Source of the DNA: Methanomassiliicoccales archaeon
GTDB lineage: Archaea > Thermoplasmatota > Thermoplasmata > Methanomassiliicoccales > JAAEEP01
DNA length: 64,000 nt
Direction of reading: 5' to 3'
Assembly (NCBI GenBank): GCA_035529155.1
Contig: DATKXF010000077.1
Location: forward strand, 9,131 to 73,130
A program made the translations under genes and the position numbers. A model generated the notes under the pieces. It did not search any database. It had not been told where the DNA came from and saw nothing but the letters and a program-made list of their open reading frames with translations. Positions 16,988 through 59,407 of the stretch are shown one piece after another. Each line of letters begins with the position of its first letter. Position 1 is the stretch's first letter.

Positions 16988-18157
16988 TCATAACATGATG
17001 CTCTCTAGCCTCTCTCTGAGAATCTTCGAAGGGATGTCAGGAAGCGATATGTATGTGGTCCTCCCGCCCGAGGCATCTCCCGTGACCTTGGTTTCTATCA
17101 GACCCTGGTTGGAGAGGTCCTTGAGGTAGGACCAGAACTGCGTGTGCCCCCGAGCCTTCTCACCGAACTCCTCGGCCGCGATGTGGTAGTTCTCCTCGAC
17201 CTCCCCAGTGGTAACATATGCGCGGTCCTTCATGGTTCGGGCTATGGCCAGCAGGACCACCTTTCTCTGAGTATCTAGCTCTTCTATCCTGGATTCCGTG
17301 ACCACACTGTAGGTCAGGGCCTTGGCCGCCCTTACGTGCTCGGGGTTGACCAGATCGACTCCTTCCTCCTCCGCCAGCATGCCCGCTTTTTCCAGAAGTT
17401 CTATGGCGAAACGCGCGTCTCCCCATTCAGAGGCAATATCCGCTATCAGGTCCATGGAATCCTCCCTCACAGTATCCTGGAAGAAGGCTAGCTCCACCCT
17501 GTCCGAGATTATGTCCTTGAGCTCATCGCTGTTGTAGCGATCGAAACTGATGGTGTTGGCCCTCCTGAAGGTCGATAGGGATGCCGGATCTAGCATGTCG
17601 AGCACGTATCTCTGGGACACAAGTATGAGTGAGATGGATCCTTTTCCCCCCACGGTCTCTTCGTCGAACCTCGAGAGGTTGTAAATCAGATCTCCAGATC
17701 CTTTCTTGAGCAGGACATCGGCCTCGTCCAGGACAACTATCAGATGGAGCCTCTTCTTGTTCACATGTCTCCTGATTGCCCTGAGCATCTCGGCGGATGA
17801 GAAGCCCCTGTCAGGGTATCCCTCGTCGAAGTGGGTGACCAGACGAAGCAGCACGGCGTTCTCCGAGTTCCGCTGCCGACAGTTCACCACCAGAAAATCA
17901 ACAGCCCCTCCCCGCTTCCGGTATTCATCGGCGAAGTCGATGCAGAATCGCTTGGACATCGCTGTCTTTCCGGTCCCGACGTTGCCGATGAGGAAGGCCG
18001 TCTGGGAGGCTCCGCCCTCGAGCACTGGCCTGAACAGCATCCACAGTCTCTCCCACTGTCCCTCTCGGTGGACAAGCCTCTCGGGAACGTAATCGAACGA
18101 GAGCTTTGACAGGTCCATGAACAATCTGGATTTCTGGCCGGGGTATTCGTTCATCAA
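16988..18157 (-). CDS. cdc6: Orc1/Cdc6 replication initiator
   Basis: Walker A 'GNVGTGKTA', Walker B 'VVLDEAD', and a C-terminal winged-helix region. The start overlaps the upstream gene's stop by 4 nt. Confidence 0.9.
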   Translation of the reverse strand: MMNEYPGQKSRLFMDLSKLSFDYVPERLVHREGQWERLWMLFRPVLEGGASQTAFLIGNVGTGKTAMSKRFCIDFADEYRKRGGAVDFLVVNCRQRNSENAVLLRLVTHFDEGYPDRGFSSAEMLRAIRRHVNKKRLHLIVVLDEADVLLKKGSGDLIYNLSRFDEETVGGKGSISLILVSQRYVLDMLDPASLSTFRRANTISFDRYNSDELKDIISDRVELAFFQDTVREDSMDLIADIASEWGDARFAIELLEKAGMLAEEEGVDLVNPEHVRAAKALTYSVVTESRIEELDTQRKVVLLAIARTMKDRAYVTTGEVEENYHIAAEEFGEKARGHTQFWSYLKDLSNQGLIETKVTGDASGGRTTYISLPDIPSKILRERLESIML

Positions 18158-26190: not shown

Positions 26191-27291
26191 TCAACGGATG
26201 AAATCGACATCGACGTCTCCGGCGGTCCTCATTTCCCTTGGACCCAGTATGTACTTGGACTTGACCCCGGTGATAACTACCATCACCCTTACCTTGTCCT
26301 CCAAAGTGGGATCGACAGTGGCACCCCAGATGATCCTGGCGTTGGGGGCGATTCTGGATTGGATGACCTCAGCCACCCTCTCGGCCTCAGACACGGTCAT
26401 GTCCGCTCCACCGATGACATTCACAAGTGCCCCGGAAGCGGTGCTGATGTCCACATCGATGAGCGGGGAGTTGATCGCCTCGTCTACCGCTTCATCTATG
26501 CGGTCCTCGTCCGAACCTTCTCCAAGACCGATCATCGCCACACCGCCTCCTCTCATGATCGTCCTGAGATCGTTGAAGTCAAGGTTGACCAGTCCGGGCT
26601 TGGTAATGAGCTCTGTGATTCCCTTGATCCCTCGCATAAGGATCTCGTCGGCCACCTTGAAAGCAGCGTTCAGTGAGAGTCTTGGAACAAGCTCAATAAG
26701 TTTGTCGTTGGGTATGACGATCACGGTATCGGCGACATTCCTAAGTCGCTCCAGGCCCCATTCGGCGTTCTCCATCCTGATGGTGCCCTCTGCCTTAAAG
26801 GGGGATGTGCAGATCGCGACCGTGAGAGCACCAAGTTCCTTGGCCAGCTGCGCCACGAATGGTGCCGCTCCCGTTCCGGTGCCACCACCAAGACCTGCGG
26901 TGATGAAAACAATATCTGCACCGGTGAGCACCTTCCTGAGGTCCTCCTCTGCCTCCCTGGCGGCCTCCTCGCCGACCTGGGGAAGCGCTCCAGCGCCGAG
27001 CCCACGTGTGCTCCTCCTGCCCAGGAGTATCTTGTTGGGAGCCTTCACAATAAGGAGATGTTGCGCGTCGGTATTCGCCGCAAATAGATCCGCTCCAATT
27101 ATTCCCGCCTCTACCAGGCGGTCGATGGTGTTTGACCCGCCGCCGCCACAGCCGATGATCTTGATGTTGGTCTTCAGGCTCGAGAGGATCCTCTCAAGCT
27201 CCTCATCGGCAGCGGAGTATTCCTTGTAGGGTGACATCTCCTCAGTCATCTCACCCATACGGGACAGTGTATCACTGACCAAAGACTTCAT
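26191..27291 (-). CDS. ftsZ: cell division GTPase FtsZ (tandem copy A)
   Basis: '[11 protein letters not shown]', '[12 protein letters not shown]' (tubulin signature) and 'NTDAQHL'. Start placed at the conserved 'MKSLV', which follows a GGAGGT SD. Confidence 0.9.
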
Positions 27292-27456
27292 TCTAAATAC
27301 CTCCTGGGCCCCTATCTTTCCTCTAAAAACTGGACTCATAGCCCAGTTACAGAGGGCTTACGTGCATTGCCACTTTAATAGGTTTCGGTAACCCTATCTA
27401 AAGGTGGACTGGCTATACCATCTTAACGGGGATTAAGATGTTGAAGGTGAAAGGAA

Positions 27457-27496: not shown

Positions 27497-28615
27497 CTAT
27501 CGAACTAGGTCGACCTCTGCACCCTTCAGGTGAGTTGGTGCGGTGCTCCTCCCCATTATCTGCTGGCTCTGTACACCGGTCATGACTACCATCACCCTCA
27601 TCTTATGTTCCAGCGCGGGGTCGATAGCGGCTCCCCAGATGATCCTGGCGTTGGGAGATACCCTCTGCTGTATCTCCTCGGCCACCTTTTCCGCCTCGGA
27701 GACGGTCATGTCAGGACCACCTAGCACGTTTACAAGAACTCCAGTCGCGGTACTGATGTCCACCTCCAGGAGCGGTGAATTTATGGCTTCCTCTATGGCC
27801 TCCATCGCCCTGTCCTCGGCGTGACCGTCGGCCTCTCCAAGGCCGATCATCGCGACGCCTCCTCCCTTCATGATCGTCCTGAGATCGTTGAAGTCAAGGT
27901 TGACCAGTCCGGGCTTGGTAATTAGCTCTGTGATTCCTTTTATGGCGCGCATCAACAGCTCGTCAGCCACCTTGAACGCGGCAGTGAGCGAGAGTCTTGG
28001 AACAAGCTCAATAAGTTTGTCGTTGGGTATGACGATCACGGTATCGGCGACATTCCTAAGTCGCTCCAGGCCCCATTCGGCGTTCTCCATCCTGTAGCGT
28101 CCCTCTCCTTTGAATGGTGTTGTTGTAATGGCCACGGTTAGAGCACCCAACTCCTTTGCTATGCCGGCAACTACCGATGCCCCACCAGTGCCAGTACCAC
28201 CGCCCATTCCTGCGGTGATGAAAACGATATGCTTGTCATGCAGACTCTTCCTGAGGTCCTCCTCTGCCTCCCTGGCGGCCTCCTCGCCGATCTGTGGAAG
28301 CGCTCCGGCGCCTAGCCCGCGTGTGCTCCTCCTTCCAAGTAGTATCTTCTTTGGCACGTTGATTGCGAGCAGGTGCTGGGCATCGGTATTGGCTGCGATG
28401 ACCTCTGCTCCGGCCACGCCTTCATCCCAGATCCTGGCGGCCGTGTTACTGCCACCGCCACCTACACCAATGATGGCGATATTGGTCTTGAGCTTCTGCA
28501 GTACCTCGATGAGTTCTGCCTCGATTGAACTGTTCTGTGAGTATGGACCCTGCTGTTCCCCATGAATCTGATTCCCGCCCTCTCTGGCCAGGGCTTCCTC
28601 AACCAGTGATTTCAT
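27497..28615 (-). CDS. ftsZ: cell division GTPase FtsZ (tandem copy B)
   Basis: '[11 protein letters not shown]', '[12 protein letters not shown]' and 'NTDAQHL'. Roughly 75-80% aa identity to copy A by eye. Start placed at the ATG of 'MKSLV', 5 nt after GGTGA. Confidence 0.9.
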
Positions 28616-28783
28616 TCCCTTCACCTTTTTAAGATTAAAACGCGCGCTCTATATGGAGAGACGTGCATCCCATTCACTCTGTTGATTGAGGATTCCGATA
28701 TTTATATTTTCGTTAAGCAATGGAGTTTCCGGCAATAGTCTGGGCAAAACTTCTTTCACGGATTAAAGATATGATGCAATGAC

Positions 28784-31129: not shown

Positions 31130-32182
31130 ATGCACGGGGTGATGGCATTGCAATGGGACCAATACGGTGACGAATACCTAGAGGAAGAGCTTCACCCGTT
31201 AAAGATACTCGTCATAGGTTGCGGTGGAGGAGGATGCAACAGCATCAACCGCCTCAACCGGATCGGTATCGAAGGAGCTGAGACTATCGCCATCAATACC
31301 GACAAGAGACATCTCAGGACGATCAATGCCGATAAGAGGCTCCTAATAGGGATGGAGGTCACCCGAGGTCTGGGAGCGGGCGGCAATCCCGACATCGGGA
31401 TGCACTGCGTTTTGAACGCAGGGGGAGCCTTGAATCAAGTCCTTCAGGGAGCAGATCTCACCTTCATAACGGTGGGAATGGGCGGAGGCACCGGTACCGG
31501 CACCGCCCCGGTGGTAGCCGAGATGGCCAAGCGTCACGGGTCGCTGGTGATCTCGATAGCCACGACTCCTTTTGGCTTCGAGGGAAACAGAACCGATATA
31601 GCATCCAGGGGGCTGAGGCGTTTGGACACAAACTCCGATACGCTTCTGATTCTGGACAATAACCGTCTGTTGGAAATGGTCCCCAATCTACCCATGGAGC
31701 AAGCCCTGGGAGTAATGGACCTTCTTATCTCCGAGATCATAAGAGGCCTCATCGAGGCAATCACCGAGCCGTCCCTCATCAACCTGGACTTCGCTGACCT
31801 CTGCAGCGTTCTCAGCCAGGGCGGCATCTCCACCCTGCTATATGGTGAGAGCTCGGACCCGGAGGGCGTGGTGGTGGACGCTTTCAACAATCCTCTTCTG
31901 GACATCGACCTCAGCGGGGCCACTGGAGCCCTCATCCATATCACAGGCGGGAACAACCTGACCCTGAGAAGGGTCGAAAAGATCATCAAAGGAATCTCTC
32001 AGTACCTAGATCCAAGAGCCAATCTCATCTGTGGAACCAGGATTGACGAGGCATATGAGGGGCAGATAAGGGTAATGGCCGTGATCACGGGAATTGCAGA
32101 TATTGCTGAGGATTCGGCCTATGAGGATGAGATTGAGGTCGATCAGGGGATCGAAGGCGCTTTGGTCCGATATGATCCTTGA
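31130..32182 (+). CDS. ftsZ: FtsZ-family tubulin-like GTPase (divergent third paralog, FtsZ2-like)
   Basis: 'VIGCGGGGCNS', '[12 protein letters not shown]' and 'NTDKRHL'. Clearly more divergent from copies A and B than they are from each other. Confidence 0.85.
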   Translation: MHGVMALQWDQYGDEYLEEELHPLKILVIGCGGGGCNSINRLNRIGIEGAETIAINTDKRHLRTINADKRLLIGMEVTRGLGAGGNPDIGMHCVLNAGGALNQVLQGADLTFITVGMGGGTGTGTAPVVAEMAKRHGSLVISIATTPFGFEGNRTDIASRGLRRLDTNSDTLLILDNNRLLEMVPNLPMEQALGVMDLLISEIIRGLIEAITEPSLINLDFADLCSVLSQGGISTLLYGESSDPEGVVVDAFNNPLLDIDLSGATGALIHITGGNNLTLRRVEKIIKGISQYLDPRANLICGTRIDEAYEGQIRVMAVITGIADIAEDSAYEDEIEVDQGIEGALVRYDP

Positions 32183-52016: not shown

Positions 52017-52118
52017 GGAAGTGTCCAGGCATGCACTCGAGGGGCATTCAGAATCCGGTAATCTATTTATATCGGGTCATTAATCAGATGGCACGATTTC
52101 CAGTAGGGAGACTGCACC

Positions 52119-55100
52119 ATGGCTAGGAATAGAGGGGCCAGAGAAAGGCCCCCGTCCACAAATAGACAGTCGATGAAAGCGGGCTTCAAGCCCCGCTTCC
52201 AGCGTTCATGGTTCGGCAAGAACTGGCACATCATTGCCATTCTGGCCACCATCTTGTTCATAGCGTTCTTCGTCAGGACATACTTCGGGTACTCGATCTC
52301 CGTGGATAACGGATACCTCGTATCCGGAGGATCGGACTCCTATTATCATGAGAGGGTAATCGATCATGTCATGAACACGGGCCAGCACCTGGTCCAAGAT
52401 CCCATGCTGAATTATCCAGGTGGGATGAGGAATGCGAGACCTCCACTCTATGACTGGTCCGTTGCCGTAACGGGGTCATTACTGAATGCCTTCGGTTTGG
52501 ATTCGTTCGATGCTATGGGCTTCGCTCTGGTGATGTCAACGGCATTCTGGGGAACTCTTACTATAATACCCGTCTTCCTGATGGGCAGGGCCGCCTTTGG
52601 CAACAAGGCGGGACTGGTAGCCGCACTGCTGTTCGCTATCATGTCAGGTCACATCCAGAGGAGCGTGATGTCCAACGCCGATCACGATGCAATGGTGCTT
52701 TTCTTCGCAGTCTGCTCCTTCTACTTCCTGATGCTCGCCCTGATGAATGTCAAGGGCAACAAGTGGGTCTCTAAATGGGGAGACACAAGCTCCATACGGA
52801 GCGGTATCCGAAGTTATCTGGGTCAGAACAAGATCTCCCTGCTTTACGCAGTTCTATCGGGAACCATGCTGGCGGCAGTGGCCATGATATGGACCGGTTT
52901 CGCCTACTTGGTGGTAATCGTTCTTGTCTACCTGCTCGTGCAGGTTCTGGTCAATCGCTTCAGGGACATAGACTCCATGGGCGTGGTCTTCACGGTGGGA
53001 TTGATGCTGCTGATGGGCTTTGCCATCATGGCTCCGGTCTACTACCAGATGAACTACTGGGACACCTGGTTCGACATTCCATTCTACATGTTCATGGCGG
53101 GTATGATCTTCGGTGGATACTTCGTGATCACCAGGGATTACCCCTGGACACTGACGATTCCGGTATTCATGATAGTGGGTGGAGGCGCCCTTTTCGTGCT
53201 GTCGTTCACCATGCCCAGCCTGTTCGAGGCATTGATAACTGGGCAGGGATACTTCGTCCAGAGCAAGCTGTACTCCACAATCTCGGAGGCACAGCCACCG
53301 GATTTCTCCAACCTGGTACTATCATTCGGAATCCTGACATTCTGGCTTTCATTTGCCGGCGTGATCTATGCGGCGATGAAGGTAGCGAAGGATACCAGCC
53401 CATACCTCATCTTCATAGTGGTGTGGAGTGGTGTCTCGATGTTCATGGCCATCTCAGCCGGGAGGTTCATGTTCAATGCGGCTCCGGCTTTCGCCATCAC
53501 GGCAGGTTGGATAGCCGCTATAATGATCGACTGGATCAACTTCCAGGACATTCCCAAGACCCTATCTGGCACGACGGGAAATCCCATCCAGGCCCTGAGA
53601 AAAGCGGTCAAATTGAGGCATGTACTGGGAGCGTTGTTCCTGGCATTCCTGATCATCGTACCCAATGTCTGGTTCGCGATGGACGCGGGAATACCATCGA
53701 ATTCCAAGGAGGAGTACTCGCAGCAGGTCTACGATGTCATGCCTAATTTCCTGAAACCACCCGATTACGATGTGGTCAACGGGACATCATGGTACTTCGG
53801 TGCATTCTCCTACAATATACCTCTTCCAACCAGCTACTGGCCATCGGCTTGGAGTTGGTTCAGTGAACGTGATAGTGACATCGTTCCAGAAGCGGCAAAA
53901 CCGGCATTCCTGTCATGGTGGGACTACGGTTTCGAGGCGGTGAGGGAAGGCAAGCATCCAACCGTGGCAGACAACTTCCAGAACGCCTACCAGTTCGCTG
54001 GACAGTTCATCACATGTCAGAACGAGGACTACGCCATCGCCATGCTGATCACAAGGACTCTTGAGGAAACAGGCGTTTCCGACAATCAGACCATCGTGGC
54101 AATCCTTGAGAGTTACGATGTCGATGTGGACAAGGTCAACGACATCATGACCAATCCATCAAAATACGTCAAGGTGGTCTTGGATCATCCCGATATCTAC
54201 GGACCATATGACAGCGATCTGAGCGCCAAGAACGCCGAGTACTCGGCGATGCAGGTGGAGCTGGCCGTTATCGGATCTGACAATCTGATCGACCTTTACC
54301 ACGACCTGAGGGAACAGACAGGCATCGATATAGGCTATTTCGCCATCGACGGCCGCCTGTTCCCCTTCACCGCTTTCGGATACAACATCTTCTACGCTCC
54401 GGCCTCGCTTTCCGATCACAGGACCGATCAGTTCAATCAGCCCTACGACTTCTACCAGATACTTGCAGTCGATCAGTACGGTGAGACGCACACATTCGAG
54501 AATGTCACCGCCGACATGGTCATCGTGGACTACACCATCGAGTACAAGGAGATGTTCTATGAATCCATGCTTTACCGCACGTTCATGGGCTACGGTCCCT
54601 ACGACATAGGATACACGAGCCAGGGAATCCCGGGTATCTCGGGATCCCTCGTCAACCTGCCGCCCATGCAGGGCTGGAACCTCACGCACTTCAGGATGGT
54701 TTACCGCACCGCGTACTACAACCCCTATCCTACGGCGCTGGTCCCTGATCACCCAGAGGCCTGGAGGGCTGTCTCATGGGAAGAGGCGGTCGAGCTTAAG
54801 GAGAAGATCGACGCCGGCGAGATAGACGGCATGGTGGACATGTCCGCCCCGACACTCGCCAGCGGCGTGGTCTTCGTTCAGTATTACGAAGGAGCGATAA
54901 TCGAGGGTACGGCCACCACTGAATCGGGCAAGCCTTTCGCCAATGCATGGGTGACCGTGCTTGACGACTATGGAGTGCCACATCACACGGTCAAGACCGA
55001 TGAGAACGGTCACTACAGCGCGATCATGCCTTTCGGTAACGTCACAATCGTATACTCGTACGGTGACCTCGATCTCAGGACCCAGGTCGCGGGAGAGCTG

Positions 55101-58100
55101 CTGATGGTCAACCACAACATCAGCTACTCTCAGGCCATGAGGGCGGAGGTCGATGCCGACAATGATGGTGTGTGGGATTACCACATCAACGGAGATGTGC
55201 AGATACCTTCCAGCAGCATTGACGGCACGGTGTTCTGGGACATAGACGGCGACGGGAAGTTCAACCCAACGGTCGACGAGCCAATGACCGACGCCCAGGT
55301 AATACTCAACGGCACCTCGATCGACTTCTACGAGGAGCAGGAGGTCGATAGCTCAGGCAAGTACCTGTTCTACTCGATACCTCCAATGACCGCTGACCTG
55401 TACGCGTACAACAAGGACCGCGAGCTTGGTCTGACAGTCCAGGAGATATTCCCGCTGGCAGATCGTACCGTCGACATCCCGGTCCGGCCCAACGCCATCA
55501 ACGGTACGCTGGTCTACGAGACTGGAGAACCCGCTTCCGGCGTTGTGGTGGAGATGGTGGACCTGATCAGCGGAGAGGTGACCAACAGGACGACCTCGGA
55601 GGACGGGGAGTTCCAGTTCGCCAAGCTGCTTCCAGGCAACTACTCGCTGAGACTTCGGAATCAGGCTGTCTCCATCGGGCAGCAGGTGTTCAATCTCGAG
55701 AACGGACGCAATGTAGACAAGACCTTCACGATCTACGACTCTATGCATATATCCGGTACGGTCAGGCTTGAGGGAACCATCACCACCAACGTGCTTGTGG
55801 GAGCGATATCCCCCACCACAGAGGTGTGGACCACCTCCGACTCCACCGGAAAATACTCCCTTCTTGTTCCAGAAGGCACCTACACCATCTACTCCATAGC
55901 GGTTAAGGCCGGTATCGAGTATGCCTGGATCGGTGCGACATCGGGCACAGGCGAGGTAACCGTGAATCCCAACCTGGTCAAGGGCAAGGTGATTACCGGG
56001 ACCGTCTACGAGGGAGGAGTGCCCTCGGCGGATACGGAGATCGTGTTCGAGGAAAGGACCAGCGGCGCCAGTCTCGCCCTGATAACCAATTCCAGCGGCG
56101 GGTTCAGAACGGTGCTGCCCACGGGAACCTACTTCATGTACTCTCACACGGACTCCCACGCAATCTGGCAAGATGTCTACATCTCTTCCACGAAGAGAAT
56201 GGATGTCTACCTCACCGAGGCCGTGCACCTCTCTGGAGTGGTATGGACCGACTCCAATGGGAACGAACTCATGGGAGACCAGGAGGGAATGGAAGGAGCC
56301 ACTATAACAGTGAATGATCCCGACGGCAGGGAGATCACATCGACCTCCGATCCCGACGGACAGTACCTGGTCACCCTGGTACCGGGGAACACCTACCAGG
56401 TGAGCTTCTCTTTCGATGGTTATCAGACGGTCGAAAGGGAGTACAAGCCACTGATGAAATCCGTGGATGAGGACATCGAGCTTGTTCCCGAGAACAGGAC
56501 CATCCAGGGAAGCGCCTTCTTCGATACCACGGCTCTGGATGACATCGAGGTTCGCTTCTACGCGGTCGGCGGAGGGGCGGTCAACGCATCCGTGATGACC
56601 GATGCTCACGGGCTATTCAGCATATCTCTTGCTCCCGGCCAGTACCTCGTACAGGTTGACCAGAACGTCACTCTGGGAAGCAACGCCACGCGCTGGCAGA
56701 ACTACACTACTCTGACAGTGGTCATCGGGGAGAACCCAGAACCACTTGACTTGGATGTGGTGAAGCGCGCTCGGGTCTACGGCGAGATCGTACCCGACAG
56801 GGACGTGATGACCTCCATAACCTTCGATGGACCGGAGACGAAGGAGATCAATGTTGACGGGACATTCGACATCTACCTCATTCCAGGAGTATACGACATC
56901 TATGCCTACTCTGAGAAGTTCAACGCCCGCTACGCCTCCCTGGAGAGAATGACGCTCGACCAGACATCATCACCCATCGTGATAATCACTGACAGAGCAT
57001 ATCCACTCGATGGCAGTCTGGTCTTCGGGGACGGACCTTTCCTGAAAGCGACACCGGTTTCCATATCCGATACAAGCGGAGCTACGCTCAGCATCAAGAC
57101 CAACAACATTGGCATGTTCACTACCTACCTGCTGCCGGGCATGTACGCGATCGAGGTCAACTACAGTGCTGTAGAAAGAATAGGCCTTGAACAGAGATAC
57201 CTCAGATACACGGGTTACAAGGAGGTCGACATGCTCTCTGGAACAGAGATCGACATCGAGCTCGACAGGGACTACGACAACTCCACCGTCAGCGGAATGC
57301 TGCTAGGAACGGATGGCAACCCAGTGGCGGGTTCCTTGACCTTCACAGCAAGATCGGAGACTTCGATGAACGCCTCCGCAACGGCGACCATGGCCGGTTT
57401 CGACCTGGAGATGGCGCCGGGCGAGTACAGCGTCTACGCCAAGCAGTTCGATGGGCCAGGTGCTTACCTGGGCGTGATCGAGATCGAGCCATACGAACCG
57501 AATCTCATAACGATCCAGCTTGAGTCCGGCCTGAGGTTCAGCGGAAAGACGATCTACAGCGGGGCCCAGGGTCCAGCAAGCATTCAGATCTCTGGCGATG
57601 GAACCGTTCACCTGGAAAGCGGACCCGACGGATCCTATGAGATATTCCTTCCCGGAGGAAGTTACAGCGTCACCTGTTCCGCCGAAGCTGTCGAACGTGA
57701 GATGGACGTCGAGTACCTCTCCTCCTTCGAGCTGGAGCTGGAGAGCAGTACCAGCAAGACCATAGAGTTGGAGAAGCAGGTGCGCCTCGGAGTGACGGTC
57801 CAATGGAATGAGCAGGAAAAGGCCACCATCCTGCCTGGCGAGAAGGCGGTCTACACCATCACGCTGGTGAACAACGGCAATGTGAAGGACACCTACGAGC
57901 TTTCCACGCTCTTCACCTCGTGGGACGTGGAGTTCTCCCAGGAAAAGGTCACAGTGGACTTCGGCAGCCAGAACTCGGCCGTGGTCACCGCTACGATCCT
58001 GACCCCTGCCGATGCCAAGGTAGAACACGCTAAGGTCAGGATATTGGCACAGTCGACCACGCAATCCAGTAAGTCCGGAAGCGTGGACGTGGATGTGAAC

Positions 58101-58616
58101 ATCATAGCGGTAAGGTCACTGAACCTCATATTCGACAAGGGCTTCCCAACATCGGGTGAGAGCTATTCCTATTCGGTGAAGCTCGACAACCTGGGCAACA
58201 TCGAGGACACCTATCACATCACTGTGGCCAACGCCGAGCAGCTGGCTTCCCTGGGATGGACATACAGCTTCGCCAACACCACTGAACGTTGGATTGAGGT
58301 CACCGTGGATGCGGGCAAGCCGGCCTACTTCACAATGTCACTCACGCCCATCAGGAGCAATCCAGATCCCGATGTTGAGCTTGTCCTGTTCGCCAGGTCT
58401 AACTCGGAGGGCACGGTTCAGAAAGCTCTTCCAGTGATACTGAATCTGCCCCATGTGACCGTACCAGATCTCTCTGTCACCGGAACATCCGTGCACGACA
58501 GCGCGCCCACCATTCCACTGGGGACAATTGCCCTGGGAGGCGCGGCGCTTGTGCTGTTCGTGATAGTTGTGCTTCTCGGATATCAGAAGGGGGTATTCAG
58601 ACGAAGAAAACGCTGA
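52119..58616 (+). CDS. aglB: giant AglB/STT3 oligosaccharyltransferase fused to Ig-like repeat array and C-terminal membrane anchor
   Basis: N-terminal polytopic region has 'GGSDSYYHER', and WWDYG is at residues 600-604 (nt 53916-53930). Residues from about 905 hold at least 11 CarboxypepD_reg-like repeats and 2 CARDB-like modules. The terminal TM is 'IALGGAALVLFVIVVLLGY' followed by 'RRRKR'. A single uninterrupted 2,165-codon ORF. Confidence 0.85.
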   Translation: MARNRGARERPPSTNRQSMKAGFKPRFQRSWFGKNWHIIAILATILFIAFFVRTYFGYSISVDNGYLVSGGSDSYYHERVIDHVMNTGQHLVQDPMLNYPGGMRNARPPLYDWSVAVTGSLLNAFGLDSFDAMGFALVMSTAFWGTLTIIPVFLMGRAAFGNKAGLVAALLFAIMSGHIQRSVMSNADHDAMVLFFAVCSFYFLMLALMNVKGNKWVSKWGDTSSIRSGIRSYLGQNKISLLYAVLSGTMLAAVAMIWTGFAYLVVIVLVYLLVQVLVNRFRDIDSMGVVFTVGLMLLMGFAIMAPVYYQMNYWDTWFDIPFYMFMAGMIFGGYFVITRDYPWTLTIPVFMIVGGGALFVLSFTMPSLFEALITGQGYFVQSKLYSTISEAQPPDFSNLVLSFGILTFWLSFAGVIYAAMKVAKDTSPYLIFIVVWSGVSMFMAISAGRFMFNAAPAFAITAGWIAAIMIDWINFQDIPKTLSGTTGNPIQALRKAVKLRHVLGALFLAFLIIVPNVWFAMDAGIPSNSKEEYSQQVYDVMPNFLKPPDYDVVNGTSWYFGAFSYNIPLPTSYWPSAWSWFSERDSDIVPEAAKPAFLSWWDYGFEAVREGKHPTVADNFQNAYQFAGQFITCQNEDYAIAMLITRTLEETGVSDNQTIVAILESYDVDVDKVNDIMTNPSKYVKVVLDHPDIYGPYDSDLSAKNAEYSAMQVELAVIGSDNLIDLYHDLREQTGIDIGYFAIDGRLFPFTAFGYNIFYAPASLSDHRTDQFNQPYDFYQILAVDQYGETHTFENVTADMVIVDYTIEYKEMFYESMLYRTFMGYGPYDIGYTSQGIPGISGSLVNLPPMQGWNLTHFRMVYRTAYYNPYPTALVPDHPEAWRAVSWEEAVELKEKIDAGEIDGMVDMSAPTLASGVVFVQYYEGAIIEGTATTESGKPFANAWVTVLDDYGVPHHTVKTDENGHYSAIMPFGNVTIVYSYGDLDLRTQVAGELLMVNHNISYSQAMRAEVDADNDGVWDYHINGDVQIPSSSIDGTVFWDIDGDGKFNPTVDEPMTDAQVILNGTSIDFYEEQEVDSSGKYLFYSIPPMTADLYAYNKDRELGLTVQEIFPLADRTVDIPVRPNAINGTLVYETGEPASGVVVEMVDLISGEVTNRTTSEDGEFQFAKLLPGNYSLRLRNQAVSIGQQVFNLENGRNVDKTFTIYDSMHISGTVRLEGTITTNVLVGAISPTTEVWTTSDSTGKYSLLVPEGTYTIYSIAVKAGIEYAWIGATSGTGEVTVNPNLVKGKVITGTVYEGGVPSADTEIVFEERTSGASLALITNSSGGFRTVLPTGTYFMYSHTDSHAIWQDVYISSTKRMDVYLTEAVHLSGVVWTDSNGNELMGDQEGMEGATITVNDPDGREITSTSDPDGQYLVTLVPGNTYQVSFSFDGYQTVEREYKPLMKSVDEDIELVPENRTIQGSAFFDTTALDDIEVRFYAVGGGAVNASVMTDAHGLFSISLAPGQYLVQVDQNVTLGSNATRWQNYTTLTVVIGENPEPLDLDVVKRARVYGEIVPDRDVMTSITFDGPETKEINVDGTFDIYLIPGVYDIYAYSEKFNARYASLERMTLDQTSSPIVIITDRAYPLDGSLVFGDGPFLKATPVSISDTSGATLSIKTNNIGMFTTYLLPGMYAIEVNYSAVERIGLEQRYLRYTGYKEVDMLSGTEIDIELDRDYDNSTVSGMLLGTDGNPVAGSLTFTARSETSMNASATATMAGFDLEMAPGEYSVYAKQFDGPGAYLGVIEIEPYEPNLITIQLESGLRFSGKTIYSGAQGPASIQISGDGTVHLESGPDGSYEIFLPGGSYSVTCSAEAVEREMDVEYLSSFELELESSTSKTIELEKQVRLGVTVQWNEQEKATILPGEKAVYTITLVNNGNVKDTYELSTLFTSWDVEFSQEKVTVDFGSQNSAVVTATILTPADAKVEHAKVRILAQSTTQSSKSGSVDVDVNIIAVRSLNLIFDKGFPTSGESYSYSVKLDNLGNIEDTYHITVANAEQLASLGWTYSFANTTERWIEVTVDAGKPAYFTMSLTPIRSNPDPDVELVLFARSNSEGTVQKALPVILNLPHVTVPDLSVTGTSVHDSAPTIPLGTIALGGAALVLFVIVVLLGYQKGVFRRRKR

Positions 58617-58636
58617 TTTCACTACTGGCAATATCC

Positions 58637-59362
58637 ATGATCCTGCTGGTAGCCCTGGCTCCACAGGTCCAGGCGGAGTACTCTCCCATGTACATCTCCA
58701 TCGATGGGCCCATAGTCATGGGCAAGGGCGAGACCAAGATGTACAGGGTGGATGTGGCCGGCGGACCTTCAGAAGGGAAGGGCAACTACACCTATACCAC
58801 GAGCATACTGGGAACCACGGGAGGAGACGCCCACGTTCTGCCGACCGATGGCACCTCCAACGGAACATTCTTCCTGAACGTCACCGCCAAAGGCGAGATG
58901 CCCAGAATAGTCCTCTGGGTGAACGTTACCTCGTACTTCGGAGGTGAGGAGGAGAGGAAGGTCAAGGAGTTCGCGATCGAGGTCATTGCCCCCATAGTGA
59001 TCGCCGCGAAAGTGGTGAACAACGGGAACATATCCGTCAACGGGGTGCCAATGACGATCTTGGCTGACGGGAAGTCCATCTACTCCACGAGTGTGAGCCT
59101 GGATCCCGGTGCTTCCACCACCATACGGTACAACTGGACAGATCCTTCGGTATCCAGTGGTGAGCATGTCGTTAAGCTGGTGCTCGATCCTGACCAGGAG
59201 TTCATCACATTCGTGGGAGGGGGAACGGTTTATACCACCACCATATGGGTTGGTGAGGAGGACTGGGGCCTCTGGAACATACTGTTCGTGGTCCTGGCCA
59301 TATTCCTGGCCTTCATGGCCTATACCTTCTACAGAAGGCCGTCAAGGCGCCGCAAGAAATGA
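58637..59362 (+). CDS. membrane-anchored surface protein with CARDB-like domain
   Basis: Short signal-like N-terminus 'MILLVALAPQVQA'. 'VIAAKVVNNGNISVNG...DPGASTTIRYNWTD' is a CARDB-like pattern. C-terminal TM 'WNILFVVLAIFLAFMAYTF' is followed by 'RRPSRRRKK'. Six N-x-S/T sequons. Confidence 0.5.
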   Translation: MILLVALAPQVQAEYSPMYISIDGPIVMGKGETKMYRVDVAGGPSEGKGNYTYTTSILGTTGGDAHVLPTDGTSNGTFFLNVTAKGEMPRIVLWVNVTSYFGGEEERKVKEFAIEVIAPIVIAAKVVNNGNISVNGVPMTILADGKSIYSTSVSLDPGASTTIRYNWTDPSVSSGEHVVKLVLDPDQEFITFVGGGTVYTTTIWVGEEDWGLWNILFVVLAIFLAFMAYTFYRRPSRRRKK

Positions 59363-59376
59363 GAAACCTCTTCACG

Positions 59377-59407
59377 GGCGGGGTTCCCGCCAGTTTTGTT
59401 CCTTTTG
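59377..59407 (+). terminator. hairpin plus T-rich terminator
   Basis: GGCGGG-gtt-CCCGCC (6 bp) is followed by 'AGTTTTGTTCCTTTT'. Confidence 0.4.

What the first reader, a model, noticed from the sequence alone, without database searches (positions are those of the whole stretch)
52119..58616. 2,165-aa AglB: oligosaccharyltransferase fused to at least 11 Ig-like repeats, two CARDB-like modules and a second membrane anchor
The first roughly 900 residues form a complete archaeal STT3/AglB. They include a polytopic N-terminus, the 'GGSDSYYH' acidic-loop motif, and WWDYG at nt 53916-53930 followed by a globular domain. The same ORF then continues without interruption for about 1,250 more codons.

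The extension contains at least 11 units of roughly 85-100 aa. Each ends in a G-x-Y-x-hydrophobic strand: 'DENGHYSAIMPFGNVTIVYSY', 'DSSGKYLFYSIPPMTADLYAY', 'EDGEFQFAKLLPGNYSLRL', 'DSTGKYSLLVPEGTYTIYS', 'NSSGGFRTVLPTGTYFMYS', 'DPDGQYLVTLVPGNTYQVSF', 'DAHGLFSISLAPGQYLVQV', 'VDGTFDIYLIPGVYDIYAY', 'NNIGMFTTYLLPGMYAIEV', 'MAGFDLEMAPGEYSVYA' and 'GPDGSYEIFLPGGSYSVTC'. This pattern is typical of CarboxypepD_reg/PEGA-like beta-sandwiches.

Two CARDB-like modules follow ('ILPGEKAVYTITLVNNGNVKDTYEL' and 'YSYSVKLDNLGNIEDTYHITV'), then a terminal TM helix and an RRRKR tail. As far as I recall, characterised AglBs are about 600-1,000 aa, so more than half of this protein is unexplained. The extension also carries at least 16 N-x-S/T sequons.

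Hypothesis: the enzyme is tethered to its own sequon-rich, doubly anchored extracellular stalk. This could be a combined glycosylation and cell-surface scaffold module in a wall-less, Thermoplasmata-like cell.
Basis: partly seen in the sequence, partly recalled or inferred. Interest (0 to 1): 0.75.

Follow-up and report, generated by a model that had tools for sequence, protein, structure and literature searches.

The report
Giant two-anchor archaeal N-glycosylation enzyme
The gene really does encode a 2,165-residue archaeal N-glycosylation enzyme (AglB) fused to 13 beta-sandwich domains and a second membrane anchor; this architecture is conserved across a whole archaeal lineage (Methanomassiliicoccales and other Thermoplasmata), is tightly coupled to a small partner gene, and I found no paper that describes it.

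Summary
ORF 52119-58616 is uninterrupted. It encodes an AglB/STT3 core with invariant catalytic motifs, then 11 transthyretin-like (CarboxypepD_reg) domains, 2 DUF11/CARDB-like domains, a C-terminal TM helix and a basic tail. AF2 pLDDT is about 90.

It is not an assembly artefact. More than 100 protein clusters and 281 species genomes carry relatives, including cultured M. luminyensis. Wherever the gene is complete, 1,500-1,620 residues follow WWDYG, and some subclades are longer. The wider family reaches about 30% core identity and 2,040-2,775 aa, always ending in a TM helix plus basic tail.

The window comes from a Methanomassiliicoccales genome, and the gene sits in a conserved housekeeping neighbourhood.

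New here: a 241-aa CARDB single-pass membrane protein follows the gene in most of the 80 loci examined. Its start overlaps or abuts the AglB stop. A nucleotide-level conserved SD + 5 nt + ACG element lies inside the AglB tail.

Sequons are enriched 1.75-fold in all 109 homologues.

Catalysis is very likely. The role of the ectodomain is inferred only: a fixed-size glycosylated envelope scaffold or ruler, or a built-in OST accessory module.

Novelty: a new variant of a known enzyme, common in databases, with no description found in the literature.

The parts
52065..52072 (+). TATA-box-like TTTATATC, 47 nt upstream of the AglB ATG. A GGGAG SD-like motif lies about 10 nt before the ATG.
   Evidence: Read directly from the sequence. 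Inferred archaeal promoter, not tested.
52119..58616 (+). Giant AglB ORF, 2,165 aa.
   Evidence: It is 100% identical to P0001, an NCBI MAG protein from a Methanomassiliicoccales archaeon.
52230..53678 (+). Polytopic membrane domain, residues 38-520, with about 13 hydrophobic segments. The N-terminus is basic and therefore probably cytoplasmic.
   Evidence: Hydropathy scan; Pfam STT3 at residues 44-464.
52326..52349 (+). EL1 acidic motif GGSD73SYYH.
   Evidence: G70-Y75 are invariant in 109 homologues.
52677..52688 (+). Second acidic motif A-D188-H-D190.
   Evidence: Invariant in 109 of 109 homologues.
53277..53288 (+). TIXE motif T387-I-S-E390 in the loop between hydrophobic segments 9 and 10 (EL5).
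   Evidence: T, I and E are invariant in 109 of 109 homologues.
53916..53930 (+). WWDYG motif, residues 600-604.
   Evidence: WWDYGFE is invariant. It aligns to the WWDYG of A. fulgidus AglB-S C-terminal domains 3vu0 and 3vgp.
53679..54866 (+). Extracytoplasmic alpha/beta globular domain of AglB, residues 521-916.
   Evidence: AF2 model. Foldseek matches A. fulgidus AglB-L entries 7e9s, 5gmy and 3wak at E about 1e-9.
54867..55127 (+). D1, residues 917-1003. A transthyretin-like beta-sandwich, as conserved as the catalytic core.
   Evidence: Mean major-residue frequency is 0.65, against about 0.45 for D2-D11.
55176..55487 (+). D2, residues 1020-1123. SdrD_B-like sandwich with conserved Asp-rich DxDxDG-type loops (DADNDG, DIDGDG).
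   Evidence: Pfam SdrD_B; family consensus DxDxDG...WDxDGDG; AF2 model. Ca2+ binding is inferred.
55491..55757 (+). D3, residues 1125-1213. The best CarboxypepD_reg match.
   Evidence: Pfam E 5e-12, profile positions 2-80 of 82.
55758..55985 (+). D4, residues 1214-1289.
   Evidence: AF2 DSSP; profile cross-hits.
55986..56222 (+). D5, residues 1290-1368.
56223..56486 (+). D6, residues 1369-1456. CarboxypepD_reg / SdrD_B-like.
   Evidence: Pfam E 5e-11.
56490..56759 (+). D7, residues 1458-1547.
56760..56993 (+). D8, residues 1548-1625.
   Evidence: There is no Pfam hit for the approximately corresponding fragment (residues 1565-1654); D8 is detected only by family profiles.
56997..57278 (+). D9, residues 1627-1720.
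57279..57521 (+). D10, residues 1721-1801. It begins with the sequon N1721-S-T, which is 99% conserved.
57522..57782 (+). D11, residues 1802-1888.
57786..58103 (+). D12, residues 1890-1995. DUF11/CARDB-class sandwich with an NxGNxxDTY motif.
   Evidence: NCBIfam choice_anch_T and the DUF11 repeat; AF2 model; it detects only D13.
58110..58448 (+). D13, residues 1998-2110. Second DUF11/CARDB-class sandwich.
58518..58586 (+). C-terminal transmembrane helix, residues 2134-2156.
   Evidence: Hydropathy 2.69; AF2 helix. A hydrophobic C-terminal segment is present in every complete family member.
58587..58613 (+). Basic tail KGVFRRRKR, predicted to be cytoplasmic.
   Evidence: Conserved in the family. 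Synonymous sites are unusually constrained here.
58587..58595 (+). Shine-Dalgarno-like AAGGGGGTA inside the AglB tail codons. The family consensus is AAGGGGGTG.
   Evidence: In 29 loci, GGG is used in 100% and GTG in 96%. The mean major-codon frequency elsewhere is 0.52.
58601..58603 (+). Conserved ACG in the partner-gene frame, exactly 5 nt after the SD. Candidate non-canonical start of the partner gene.
   Evidence: Present in the window plus 35 loci. The same position holds a canonical ATG in L055 and L056 (at 5 nt) and nearly the same position in L073, L074 and L077 (at 4 nt). Inference, not shown.
58637..59362 (+). Partner gene. 241 aa from the first ATG, or 253 aa if translated from the ACG. 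It has a signal or anchor sequence, a CARDB domain, 6 sequons, a C-terminal TM helix and an RRPSRRRKK tail.
   Evidence: Pfam CARDB 34.8 bits against a cutoff of 22.7. It lies immediately downstream of AglB in most of the 80 loci. Its start overlaps or abuts the AglB stop in about 40 of 59 loci.
59377..59407 (+). GC hairpin (GGCGGG / CCCGCC) followed by a T-rich run. Terminator-like end of the two-gene unit.
   Evidence: Read directly from the sequence. Inferred.

Best explanation
This is most likely the housekeeping N-oligosaccharyltransferase (AglB) of a Methanomassiliicoccales archaeon, in a lineage-specific giant form.

Shown by computation here:
- A 13-segment STT3-type membrane domain carries all four catalytic motifs.
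- It is followed on the outside of the membrane by an AglB globular domain, 11 transthyretin-like domains and 2 DUF11/CARDB-class beta-sandwich domains.
- The chain then re-enters the membrane through a C-terminal helix with a basic tail.
- The domain count and order are fixed across a class-level clade.
- The gene forms a two-gene unit with a small CARDB single-pass membrane protein, and the two are translationally coupled.

Inferred:
- The enzyme transfers lipid-linked glycans to Asn in N-x-S/T sequons of exported proteins, like other AglBs.
- The acidic, sequon-rich ectodomain is itself N-glycosylated.
- With both ends in the cytoplasmic membrane, it forms a rigid arch or rod assembly of defined size. 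The contour length is roughly 45-55 nm, an estimate from typical Ig-like domain dimensions.
- Together with the partner protein, it serves as a fixed-dimension envelope or glycocalyx scaffold in cells that have no S-layer. This would couple the glycosylation machine to the surface structure it builds.

My confidence by step:
- A real full-length protein of this architecture: about 0.95.
- An active AglB: about 0.85.
- The partner is a physical subunit: about 0.5.
- The ectodomain's main role is structural (scaffold or ruler): about 0.4.
For: Identity:
- Pfam STT3 and NCBIfam archaeo_STT3 match residues 40-645.
- D73, D188-H-D190, T387-I-x-E390 and WWDYG are invariant in 109 homologues.
- Foldseek matches A. 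fulgidus AglB-L.

The fusion is real:
- More than 100 clusters are full length at 35-100% identity, including M. luminyensis WP_081579967.1.
- 281 species genomes carry relatives. The 80 best loci were examined: about 60 hold a complete open frame, and in these 1,500-1,620 residues follow WWDYG.
- Family members down to 30% core identity all keep the TM helix plus basic tail.

Fixed architecture:
- The extension is only 30-35% identical across the family but almost free of gaps.
- Each domain profile hits its own position at 1e-26 to 1e-43 and other domains no better than 1e-9. Domains are therefore individually orthologous, unlike variable-number adhesin repeats.
- AF2 pLDDT is about 90 and pTM is 0.71 and 0.53. 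Long strands run across domain borders.

Glycoprotein character:
- Sequons are enriched 1.75-fold in 109 of 109 homologues.
- N554, N854 and N1721 are conserved in 85-99%.
- The ectodomain pI is about 4.3.

Housekeeping context:
- The order nusA, radical-SAM, pyrF, AglB, partner, trx, purD is conserved in most loci. It lies next to the RNA polymerase genes.

Partner:
- Adjacent in most of the 80 loci, with start/stop overlap.
- A conserved SD element lies inside the AglB tail.

Cell biology:
- Methanomethylophilus alvi shows no cell wall or S-layer (PMC10673518).
- M. luminyensis was reported to have two membranes (PMC4243693).

Weak expression lead:
- Proteins containing CarboxypepD_reg make up 0.375% of proteome intensity in M. 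luminyensis and 0.357% in M. alvus (supplement of PMC7613761). That table does not show that this signal comes from AglB.
Against: - No experiment bears on the protein. Activity, glycosylation, surface abundance, partner binding and post-translational cleavage are all untested.
- I had no coordinates or PAE. The arch or rod geometry is inferred only from DSSP strings and pTM values.
- The DK/MI motif that lines the +2 Ser/Thr pocket in known OSTs is replaced by a family-specific (N/D)GYQFAG(S/N)F(I/L) stretch. Sequon recognition may therefore differ.
- I could not check whether these genomes also carry a second, short AglB.
- A structural role is the default guess for strings of Ig-like domains. 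Nothing here discriminates it from an enzymatic accessory role.
- An Aciduliprofundum sp. MAG also carries a family member. From my own recollection, not checked here, the cultured Aciduliprofundum boonei has an S-layer, which would mean the giant form is not strictly tied to wall-less cells.
Confidence: 0.5

Rival explanations
1. Built-in accessory module. The 13-domain ectodomain, its C-terminal helix and the coupled CARDB partner serve the enzyme rather than the envelope. They could position the active site relative to the Sec translocon, hold nascent unfolded substrates, or select substrates. This would be functionally analogous to the single-pass, beta-sandwich-rich non-catalytic subunits of the eukaryotic OST complex (ribophorin I/Ost1, OST48/Wbp1, ribophorin II/Swp1; my own knowledge of that complex).
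For: - D1 is as conserved as the catalytic core and carries conserved polar residues (H955, D949, D961).
- pTM is 0.71 for the globular domain plus D1-D5, which suggests a defined packing.
- The C-terminal helix and tail are always retained.
- The partner is strictly co-encoded and coupled.
- Domains keep their individual identities.
- Characterised long AglBs already carry one or two peripheral beta domains. There is a weak Pfam AglB_L1 hit and a Foldseek match to AfAglB-L.
Against: - There is no sequence or fold match to any eukaryotic OST accessory subunit.
- Thirteen domains are far more than are needed to reach a neighbouring translocon.
- D2-D11 conserve almost only structural Gly, Pro and Tyr residues, with no obvious binding site.
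- A sister group of 1,100-1,290-aa AglBs manages without the second anchor.
Confidence: 0.25
2. Inter-membrane tether or ruler. The STT3 domain sits in the cytoplasmic membrane and the C-terminal helix inserts into the reported outer membrane. The rigid 13-domain rod would then set the width of the pseudo-periplasm.
For: - Two membranes were reported for M. luminyensis (PMC4243693, PMC10673518).
- The domain number is fixed over a large clade.
- The domain connections look rigid and pLDDT is high.
Against: - M. alvi has a single membrane (PMC10673518), yet MAGs labelled Methanomethylophilaceae, the family to which M. alvi belongs, carry the same protein (L059; P0143 cluster).
- The strongly basic tail after the last helix follows the positive-inside rule for the cytoplasmic membrane.
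- The evidence for two membranes in M. luminyensis is described as poor (PMC4243693).
Confidence: 0.08
3. Adhesin. The repeats form a stalk that binds host surfaces, particles or partner cells, and the AglB domain serves merely as the membrane anchor.
For: - The best structural neighbours of the repeats are Gram-positive pilins, SdrD, a TIE protein and an ice-binding adhesin region.
- D2 has SdrD_B-like Asp-rich loops.
Against: - The repeat number is constant rather than variable.
- There is no distal ligand-binding head, and both ends are membrane-anchored.
- Catalytic motifs are invariant.
- The synteny is housekeeping.
- The protein occurs in free-living sediment, peat and digester MAGs as well as gut lineages.
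- No conserved Lys/Asn/Glu triads suggest pilin-type isopeptide bonds.
Confidence: 0.07
4. Artefact: a missed stop or frameshift has fused a normal AglB of about 900 aa to a separate surface-protein gene.
For: A few loci do show broken frames (L014, L038, L042, L060, L061, L067).
Against: - The single frame is intact in about 60 independent genome assemblies and >100 protein clusters from several sequencing sources, including the RefSeq protein of the cultured M. luminyensis.
- Several of the broken copies (L014, L038, L061, L067) come from assemblies with very long contigs or whole-chromosome records, which may be long-read assemblies where indel errors are expected. That cause is my inference.
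Confidence: 0.01

Closest known systems
Archaeoglobus fulgidus AglB-L (PDB 3WAK, 5GMY, 7E9S), the characterised 'long' archaeal oligosaccharyltransferase of about 868 aa
   Same: - A 13-TM STT3-type domain.
- An EL1 Asp, a second acidic motif, a TIXE motif and WWDYG.
- An alpha/beta C-terminal globular domain followed by beta-rich peripheral units.
- Foldseek E about 1e-9 to the model of residues 561-1380.
   Different: - AfAglB-L ends after one or two peripheral domains and has no second membrane anchor.
- Here 13 beta-sandwich domains (about 1,200 residues), a TM helix and a basic tail follow.
- The DK motif position is occupied by a different conserved sequence.
- Sequence similarity to the PDB AglBs is weak: E 1e-5, and only around WWDYG.
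Staphylococcal SdrD/SdrC B-repeat stalks and Gram-positive pilin CnaB/transthyretin-like domains
   Same: - Tandem transthyretin-like or prealbumin-like sandwiches.
- An SdrD_B Pfam hit (63 bits) and Asp-rich DxDxDG-type loops in D2.
- Top Foldseek neighbours.
- These known repeats are thought to act as rigid spacers.
   Different: - Those proteins are wall-anchored adhesins with variable repeat numbers and a ligand-binding head.
- Here the number is fixed, both ends are in the membrane, the N-terminal 'head' is an enzyme, and no isopeptide triads are conserved.
Eukaryotic NOMO (Nodal modulator): a string of about 12 transthyretin/Ig-like domains, one TM helix and a short cytosolic tail in the ER, associated with the translocon (my own knowledge)
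   Same: - The C-terminal half has the same layout: about a dozen CarboxypepD_reg-type domains, a single TM helix and a short tail.
- The Pfam NOMO_5th family scores 35.4 bits for the whole protein, against a cutoff of 27.
   Different: - No individual NOMO_5th stretch is significant.
- No NOMO chain appears among the PDB sequence or fold hits listed.
- NOMO is a separate polypeptide, not fused to an OST.
- Homology beyond the shared domain class is not shown.
Non-catalytic subunits of the eukaryotic OST complex (ribophorin I/Ost1, OST48/Wbp1, ribophorin II/Swp1)
   Same: Lumenal or extracytoplasmic beta-sandwich domains anchored by a single C-terminal TM helix with a short basic cytosolic tail, stoichiometrically associated with STT3 (my own knowledge). 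Here there is a cis-fused module plus a translationally coupled single-pass partner.
   Different: No detectable sequence or fold relationship. Association of the helix or the partner with the STT3 domain is not shown.
Sulfolobus S-layer anchor SlaB
   Same: A membrane-anchored string of beta-sandwich domains with a C-terminal TM helix that sets the envelope spacing. It is a weak Foldseek neighbour (8qox_B, E 1e-7).
   Different: SlaB has three sandwich domains plus a coiled coil, carries no enzyme, and supports a crystalline SlaA lattice. No lattice-forming partner is known here.

Membership tests
AglB / STT3 / PglB oligosaccharyltransferase (GT-C; Pfam PF02516) | Polytopic N-terminal domain of about 13 TM helices, N-terminus in, C-terminal domain out. 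| tested here: met
   Pfam STT3 at residues 44-464, 50.4 bits against a cutoff of 24.5. About 13 hydrophobic segments lie between residues 38 and 520, preceded by a basic N-terminus. Topology comes from hydropathy only; no dedicated predictor was used.
AglB / STT3 / PglB oligosaccharyltransferase | Catalytic acidic residues: an Asp in external loop 1 and a second DxD/DxH-type motif. | tested here: met
   GGSD73SYY and A-D188-H-D190 are invariant in 109 of 109 homologues.
AglB / STT3 / PglB oligosaccharyltransferase | TIXE/SVSE motif in external loop 5. | tested here: met
   T387-I-S-E390 lies between hydrophobic segments 9 and 10. T, I and E are invariant.
AglB / STT3 / PglB oligosaccharyltransferase | WWDXG motif at the start of the C-terminal globular domain. 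| tested here: met
   W600-W-D-Y-G is invariant. It aligns to the WWDYG of 3vu0 and 3vgp.
AglB / STT3 / PglB oligosaccharyltransferase | DK (DxxKxxx[MI]) or MI motif forming the +2 Ser/Thr pocket. | tested here: not met
   In the phmmer alignment to 3vu0 the DDAAKFF stretch aligns to YQFAGQF. The family consensus is (N/D)GYQFAG(S/N)F(I/L), with no conserved Asp or Lys. It is a family-specific variant, and its structural equivalence was not checked.
AglB / STT3 / PglB oligosaccharyltransferase | AglB-type alpha/beta globular domain fold. | tested here: met
   Foldseek against 7e9s_A, 5gmy_A and 3wak gives E 1e-9 to 2e-8, TM 0.24-0.25 over about 540 columns, using a model with pLDDT 89.5.
AglB / STT3 / PglB oligosaccharyltransferase | Transfer of a lipid-linked glycan to Asn of N-x-S/T. 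| not testable with these tools
   Requires an enzyme assay or genetics.
NCBIfam TIGR04154 archaeo_STT3 (archaeosortase A system-associated subfamily) | Score above the curated cutoff of 450 bits. | tested here: not met
   208.4 bits over residues 40-645. It is related to this subfamily but not a member.
CarboxypepD_reg / transthyretin-like beta-sandwich repeats (PF13620) | Pfam score above the gathering threshold, with repeated 7-strand sandwiches. | tested here: met
   160.5 bits against a cutoff of 32.3, with 5 stretches. AF2 shows 11 such sandwiches. All 11 cross-detect at profile level.
CARDB (PF07705) for domains D12-D13 of AglB | Pfam CARDB match. | tested here: not met
   No CARDB hit was found, even at E <= 1 on isolated fragments. 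The best matches are choice_anch_T at 58.1 bits (cutoff 70) and the DUF11 repeat at 24.9 bits (cutoff 24). The fold class is the same, but family membership is not shown.
CARDB (PF07705) for the downstream partner protein | Pfam CARDB match. | tested here: met
   34.8 bits against a cutoff of 22.7, residues 120-188.
Archaeosortase-type C-terminal sorting signals (PGF-CTERM and relatives) | Conserved signature motif immediately before the C-terminal TM helix, plus a match to a CTERM model. | tested here: not met
   The residues before the helix are not conserved across 120 homologues, whereas the cytoplasmic tail is. No NCBIfam CTERM model matches the last 65 residues at E <= 10.
NOMO-like translocon-associated Ig-string proteins | Homology to NOMO domains beyond the generic transthyretin-like fold. 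| tested here: inconclusive
   NOMO_5th scores 35.4 bits summed, but no single significant stretch is found. Fragments give only E 0.13-0.26.

The most novel reading that the evidence does not exclude
The giant AglB and its translationally coupled CARDB partner form a self-contained 'OST holo-complex plus envelope module'. In this reading, the catalytic STT3 domain is permanently built into a rigid, self-glycosylated, doubly anchored 13-domain arch. That arch is the principal fixed-dimension element of the cell envelope in S-layer-less Thermoplasmatota, either as a glycocalyx frame or as a spacer for the pseudo-periplasm. Protein glycosylation and surface architecture would then be physically coupled.

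A sub-reading concerns the partner. In Methanomassiliicoccales it may be expressed through a conserved non-AUG (ACG) start, or through a -1 frameshift inside the AglB tail that adds it to the same polypeptide.
Probability: 0.15. Interest if true: 0.8.

Novelty: new variant of a known kind. Interest (0 to 1): 0.6.

Why it matters
AglB is the one near-universal enzyme of archaeal N-glycosylation, and all characterised examples are single-anchor proteins of roughly 600-1,000 residues. Here an entire class-level lineage appears to use a form more than twice that size, and I could not test whether a shorter AglB coexists. The lineage includes cultured human-gut methanogens. The giant form has a fixed 13-domain ectodomain, a second anchor and a dedicated partner protein.

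If the extension is structural, it would identify a major envelope component of archaea that lack S-layers, for which the envelope proteins are largely unknown.

If the extension is an accessory module, it would be a prokaryotic parallel to the multi-subunit eukaryotic OST.

Either way it is directly testable, because M. luminyensis and M. alvi are in culture.

The conserved SD + ACG element is a candidate case of non-canonical initiation, or of recoding, in archaea.

Tried and rejected
1. Frameshift or misassembly: rejected on conservation of the full-length frame.
2. Archaeosortase-type processing of the C-terminus: no conserved pre-helix motif and no CTERM model hit.
3. Pilin-like isopeptide-stabilised domains, suggested by the Foldseek pilin/TIE hits: no conserved Lys/Asn-Asp/Glu triads.
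4. The partner as a duplicate of the D12-D13-TM module: BLASTP is not significant (E 0.35), and only the NNGN motif is shared.
5. Foldseek of the distal half against the PDB gave only generic multi-Ig strings (alpha-2-macroglobulin/complement family, TM about 0.1), with no specific analogue.
6. The afdb50 fold library was unavailable.
7. A PDB sequence search with the whole protein found only AglB fragments around WWDYG.
8. Literature searches for a description of the giant form returned nothing relevant (AglB + Methanomassiliicoccales, AglB + Thermoplasmata, oligosaccharyltransferase + Methanomassiliicoccus, and the RefSeq accession).
9. The proteomics supplement of PMC7613761 has Pfam-level abundances, but the STT3 row is cut off. 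The CarboxypepD_reg signal therefore cannot be assigned to this protein.
10. My first ad hoc slicing of the extension for Pfam mis-set several boundaries and left two fragments without hits. AF2 plus family profiles resolved them.
11. I could not obtain model coordinates or PAE, so no geometry was measured.

Full report
**1. The observation**

The window holds one uninterrupted ORF at 52119-58616 (+) of 2,165 codons.
- GGSDSYYH at residues 70-77.
- WWDYG at residues 600-604 (nt 53916-53930).
- A hydrophobic segment at 2134-2152 followed by GYQKGVFRRRKR.
- 16 N-x-S/T sequons in residues 901-2120.

Pfam gives STT3 (residues 44-464) and a strong CarboxypepD_reg signal (160 bits), plus SdrD_B, SpaA and NOMO_5th. 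NCBIfam gives archaeo_STT3 over residues 40-645. That score is 208 bits, below the subfamily cutoff of 450. NCBIfam also gives a choice-of-anchor-T/DUF11-type match at 1899-1995.

**2. Not an artefact, and the organism**

The identical protein is in NCBI, labelled as from a Methanomassiliicoccales MAG. More than 100 clusters at 35-100% identity cover the full length at 2,140-2,227 aa. They include the RefSeq protein of cultured Methanomassiliicoccus luminyensis.

A scan of one genome per GTDB species found 281 genomes that encode a relative. I examined the best 80 loci. About 60 of them hold a complete open frame, and in these 1,500-1,620 residues follow WWDYG. Six loci have broken frames (L014, L038, L042, L060, L061, L067). 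Several of these sit in assemblies with very long contigs or whole-chromosome records. That suggests long-read assemblies, where indel errors are expected, but this cause is my inference.

An exhaustive HMMER search with the 900-residue core found 325 representative clusters (50% identity clustering) at E<1e-30. Members down to 30% core identity are 2,040-2,775 aa, and every complete one ends in a hydrophobic helix plus a basic tail. Named members are labelled Thermoplasmata, Thermoplasmatota, Methanomethylophilaceae and Aciduliprofundum sp.. A sister group of 1,100-1,290 aa lacks the second anchor.

**3. Anatomy**

Hydropathy gives about 13 segments between residues 38 and 520, after a basic N-terminus. 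This is the STT3 topology. In an alignment of 109 full-length homologues, four motifs are invariant: GGSD73SYY, A-D188-H-D190, T387-I-x-E390 and W600WDYGFE. The DK/MI position is different: it carries a family-specific (N/D)GYQFAG(S/N)F(I/L) stretch.

AlphaFold2 with a 41-sequence alignment gave two models:
- Residues 561-1380: pLDDT 89.5, pTM 0.71.
- Residues 1340-2165: pLDDT 90.1, pTM 0.53.

DSSP delimits an alpha/beta globular domain up to about residue 916, then 13 beta-sandwiches:

| Domain | Residues |
|---|---|
| D1 | 917-1003 |
| D2 | 1020-1123 |
| D3 | 1125-1213 |
| D4 | 1214-1289 |
| D5 | 1290-1368 |
| D6 | 1369-1456 |
| D7 | 1458-1547 |
| D8 | 1548-1625 |
| D9 | 1627-1720 |
| D10 | 1721-1801 |
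| D11 | 1802-1888 |
| D12 | 1890-1995 |
| D13 | 1998-2110 |

A helix follows at 2134-2156.

Per-domain family profiles show that D1-D11 are one repeat family and that D12-D13 are a second family. Each profile hits its own position at 1e-26 to 1e-43 and the other domains no better than 1e-9. The domains are therefore individually orthologous across the clade.

Conservation differs along the chain. The core and D1 are 50-75% identical to the query. D2-D13 are only 30-35% identical but almost free of gaps. Outside D1, the conserved residues are almost all Gly, Pro and Tyr. D2 carries conserved Asp-rich DxDxDG-type loops. The ectodomain is acidic, with pI about 4.3.

**4. Sequons**

The extension has 16 sequons against 9.5 expected from composition. 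Across 109 homologues the mean is 22.5 against 12.9 in shuffles. Every homologue is enriched. Three positions are conserved in 85-99% of sequences: N554, N854 and N1721. This is what one expects of an archaeal surface glycoprotein. It does not show self-glycosylation.

**5. Context**

The gene lies in a housekeeping block:
- rpoB, rpoA' and rpoA''.
- A NusA-like KH protein.
- A radical-SAM gene on the minus strand.
- pyrF, then AglB.
- A 241-aa protein, then thioredoxin, a 205-aa ORF on the minus strand, and a gene I labelled purD from its translation.

The order from nusA to purD is conserved in most of the 80 loci. A TATA-like TTTATATC lies 47 nt upstream of the AglB ATG. A GC hairpin plus T-run follows the 241-aa gene. 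Together these suggest a two-gene unit. No other glycosylation genes are in the window.

**6. The partner gene**

The 241-aa product has the following parts:
- A hydrophobic N-terminus.
- A CARDB domain above the Pfam threshold.
- Six sequons.
- A C-terminal TM helix.
- An RRPSRRRKK tail.

It is found immediately downstream of AglB in most of the 80 loci. In about 40 of 59 complete loci its first canonical start overlaps or abuts the AglB stop. It is not a detectable duplicate of D12-D13.

**7. An embedded signal in the AglB tail**

The last ten AglB codons are conserved at the nucleotide level: AAGGGGGTG TTCNC ACG AAG AAA GCG CTGA. The evidence for constraint beyond the protein sequence is as follows:
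- Among 307 nearly invariant four- or six-fold degenerate columns, the mean major-codon frequency is 0.52. G2158 is GGG in 100% and V2159 is GTG in 96% of the 29 loci compared.
- The Arg codons at positions -4 and -3 are CGA and AGA in 20 of 23 loci. Elsewhere in these ORFs, CGA makes up 3% and AGA 9% of Arg codons.

AGGGGGUG is a near-perfect Shine-Dalgarno sequence. In the window and in 35 loci, exactly 5 nt after it comes ACG in the partner's frame. That ACG is followed by K/Q/P-K-(K), a hydrophobic stretch and an AxA-like site. If translated from the ACG, this would be a textbook signal peptide.

Three further observations bear on where translation starts:
- The distance from the ACG to the first ATG, GTG or TTG varies from 3 to 18 codons.
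- In six loci, a stop closes the partner frame 5-7 codons upstream of the ACG.
- In deeper lineages the SD is followed by a canonical ATG that overlaps the AglB stop: at the same 5-nt spacing in L055 and L056, and at 4 nt in L073, L074 and L077.

I considered three readings:
- Most likely, the partner initiates at ACG in Methanomassiliicoccales (window 58601-58603).
- Alternatively, it initiates at the downstream ATG (58637).
- Alternatively, a -1 frameshift at A_AGA_AAG, about 11 nt after the SD, joins the two proteins. That fusion would be topologically consistent.

None of these was tested.

**8. What it most likely is and does**

*Shown computationally:*
- A complete AglB with intact catalytic motifs is fused to a fixed 13-domain extracytoplasmic module with a second anchor.
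- The protein is co-encoded and translationally coupled with a CARDB single-pass protein.
- The arrangement is universal in a class-level clade.

*Inferred from established OST knowledge:*
- It transfers lipid-linked glycans to N-x-S/T sequons on the outer face of the membrane.

*Inferred from topology, sequon enrichment, acidity, fixed domain number, domain individuality, and high pLDDT and pTM:*
- The ectodomain is a rigid glycosylated structure of defined size, with both ends in the cytoplasmic membrane.

*Function:* I favour an envelope or glycocalyx scaffold or ruler in cells without an S-layer. The basis is that M. alvi shows no wall or S-layer (PMC10673518), and that M. luminyensis was reported to have two membranes (PMC4243693). 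The main rival is a built-in enzymatic accessory module, analogous to the eukaryotic OST subunits. An inter-membrane tether and an adhesin are less likely, for the reasons given under the rival explanations.

*Expression:* the only lead is weak. Proteins containing CarboxypepD_reg make up about 0.36-0.38% of proteome intensity in M. luminyensis and M. alvus (PMC7613761 supplement). The row that would tie this signal to STT3 is cut off.

**9. Comparison with what is known, and novelty**

Membership in the AglB/STT3 family is met on every sequence and fold criterion I could test, except the DK/MI motif, which is a variant. The protein is not a member of the archaeosortase-A-associated STT3 subfamily. 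It shows no archaeosortase-type sorting signal.

The closest characterised enzyme is A. fulgidus AglB-L at 868 aa. AfAglB-L stops after one or two peripheral beta domains and has no second anchor.

The C-terminal half has the same layout as eukaryotic NOMO: a dozen transthyretin-like domains, a TM helix and a short tail. Homology beyond the domain class is not shown.

The protein family is abundant in databases under generic names such as 'carboxypeptidase regulatory-like domain-containing protein', 'STT3 domain-containing protein' and 'glycosyltransferase family 39 protein'. I found no paper that describes the giant architecture, its conservation or its partner.

I rate it a new variant of a known kind, with interest 0.6.

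Noticed in passing
window 58587-58640; loci L001-L059 at the AglB stop: The last about 10 codons of AglB are conserved at the nucleotide level. They contain a near-perfect Shine-Dalgarno (AGGGGGTG) followed after exactly 5 nt by ACG in the downstream gene's frame. The AglB tail uses the rare Arg codons CGA and AGA in 20 of 23 loci, against 3% and 9% elsewhere in these ORFs. Deeper lineages have a canonical ATG after the SD, at the same 5-nt spacing in L055 and L056 and at 4 nt in L073, L074 and L077. This suggests ACG initiation of the partner gene, or less likely a -1 frameshift that fuses it to AglB.
   Followed up: partly
window 58637-59362 (+): A 241-aa CARDB-domain protein with a hydrophobic N-terminus, six sequons, a C-terminal TM helix and a basic tail. 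It lies directly downstream of the giant AglB in most of the 80 related loci, usually with start/stop overlap. It is a likely dedicated partner or subunit.
   Followed up: partly
window 26191-27339 (-), 27497-28624 (-), 31130-32182 (+): Three FtsZ/tubulin-family paralogues (Tubulin + FtsZ_C) lie within 6 kb.
   Followed up: no
residues 622-631 of the AglB (window 53982-54011): The DK/MI motif position of known oligosaccharyltransferases is replaced by a family-specific conserved (N/D)GYQFAG(S/N)F(I/L). Separately, the fourth WWDXG residue is an invariant Tyr. A 2024 review (PMC11407970) describes Tyr at that position as typical of TACK/Asgard AglB and eukaryal Stt3, and the position as variable in Euryarchaeota.
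   Followed up: partly
proteins P0215, P0221, P0223, P0228, P0233, P0239, P0244, P0250, P0251, P0254, P0255, P0257, P0260, P0264: A sister group of AglBs of 1,100-1,290 aa, 33-38% identical in the core. They have only about 550-700 residues after WWDYG and no C-terminal TM helix. They may be an intermediate or an alternative architecture. Their taxonomy is unknown.
   Followed up: no
loci L014 and L034 (both from MAG CAVYIY01, MFD01299.bin.2.50): One MAG carries two giant-AglB copies. One is in the conserved syntenic context but frameshifted. The other is intact in a different context and lacks the SD element and the partner gene.
   Followed up: no
proteins P0159-P0214 (for example P0190 at 2,767 aa, P0214 at 2,775 aa, P0172 at 2,667 aa): Some subclades of Thermoplasmata have even longer versions, with 1,730-2,080 residues after WWDYG. 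That corresponds to roughly 2-5 extra domains. They still end in a TM helix plus basic tail.
   Followed up: no
window 16988-18157 (-) and 9448-10566 (+): A Cdc6/Orc1 gene, which may mark a nearby replication origin. Also a URO-D-family protein of the kind used as methylcobamide:CoM methyltransferase in methylotrophic methanogens. Both are consistent with the Methanomassiliicoccales assignment.
   Followed up: no
window 43-1056 (+): A 337-aa ORF with no Pfam match at E <= 1e-3.
   Followed up: no
PMC7613761 supplementary file 10: Whole-cell proteomics lists Pfam CarboxypepD_reg at 0.375% of intensity in M. luminyensis and 0.357% in M. alvus. CarbopepD_reg_2 has the identical value of 0.375% in M. 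luminyensis. The stored file is cut before the STT3 row, so attribution to the giant AglB is open.
   Followed up: partly
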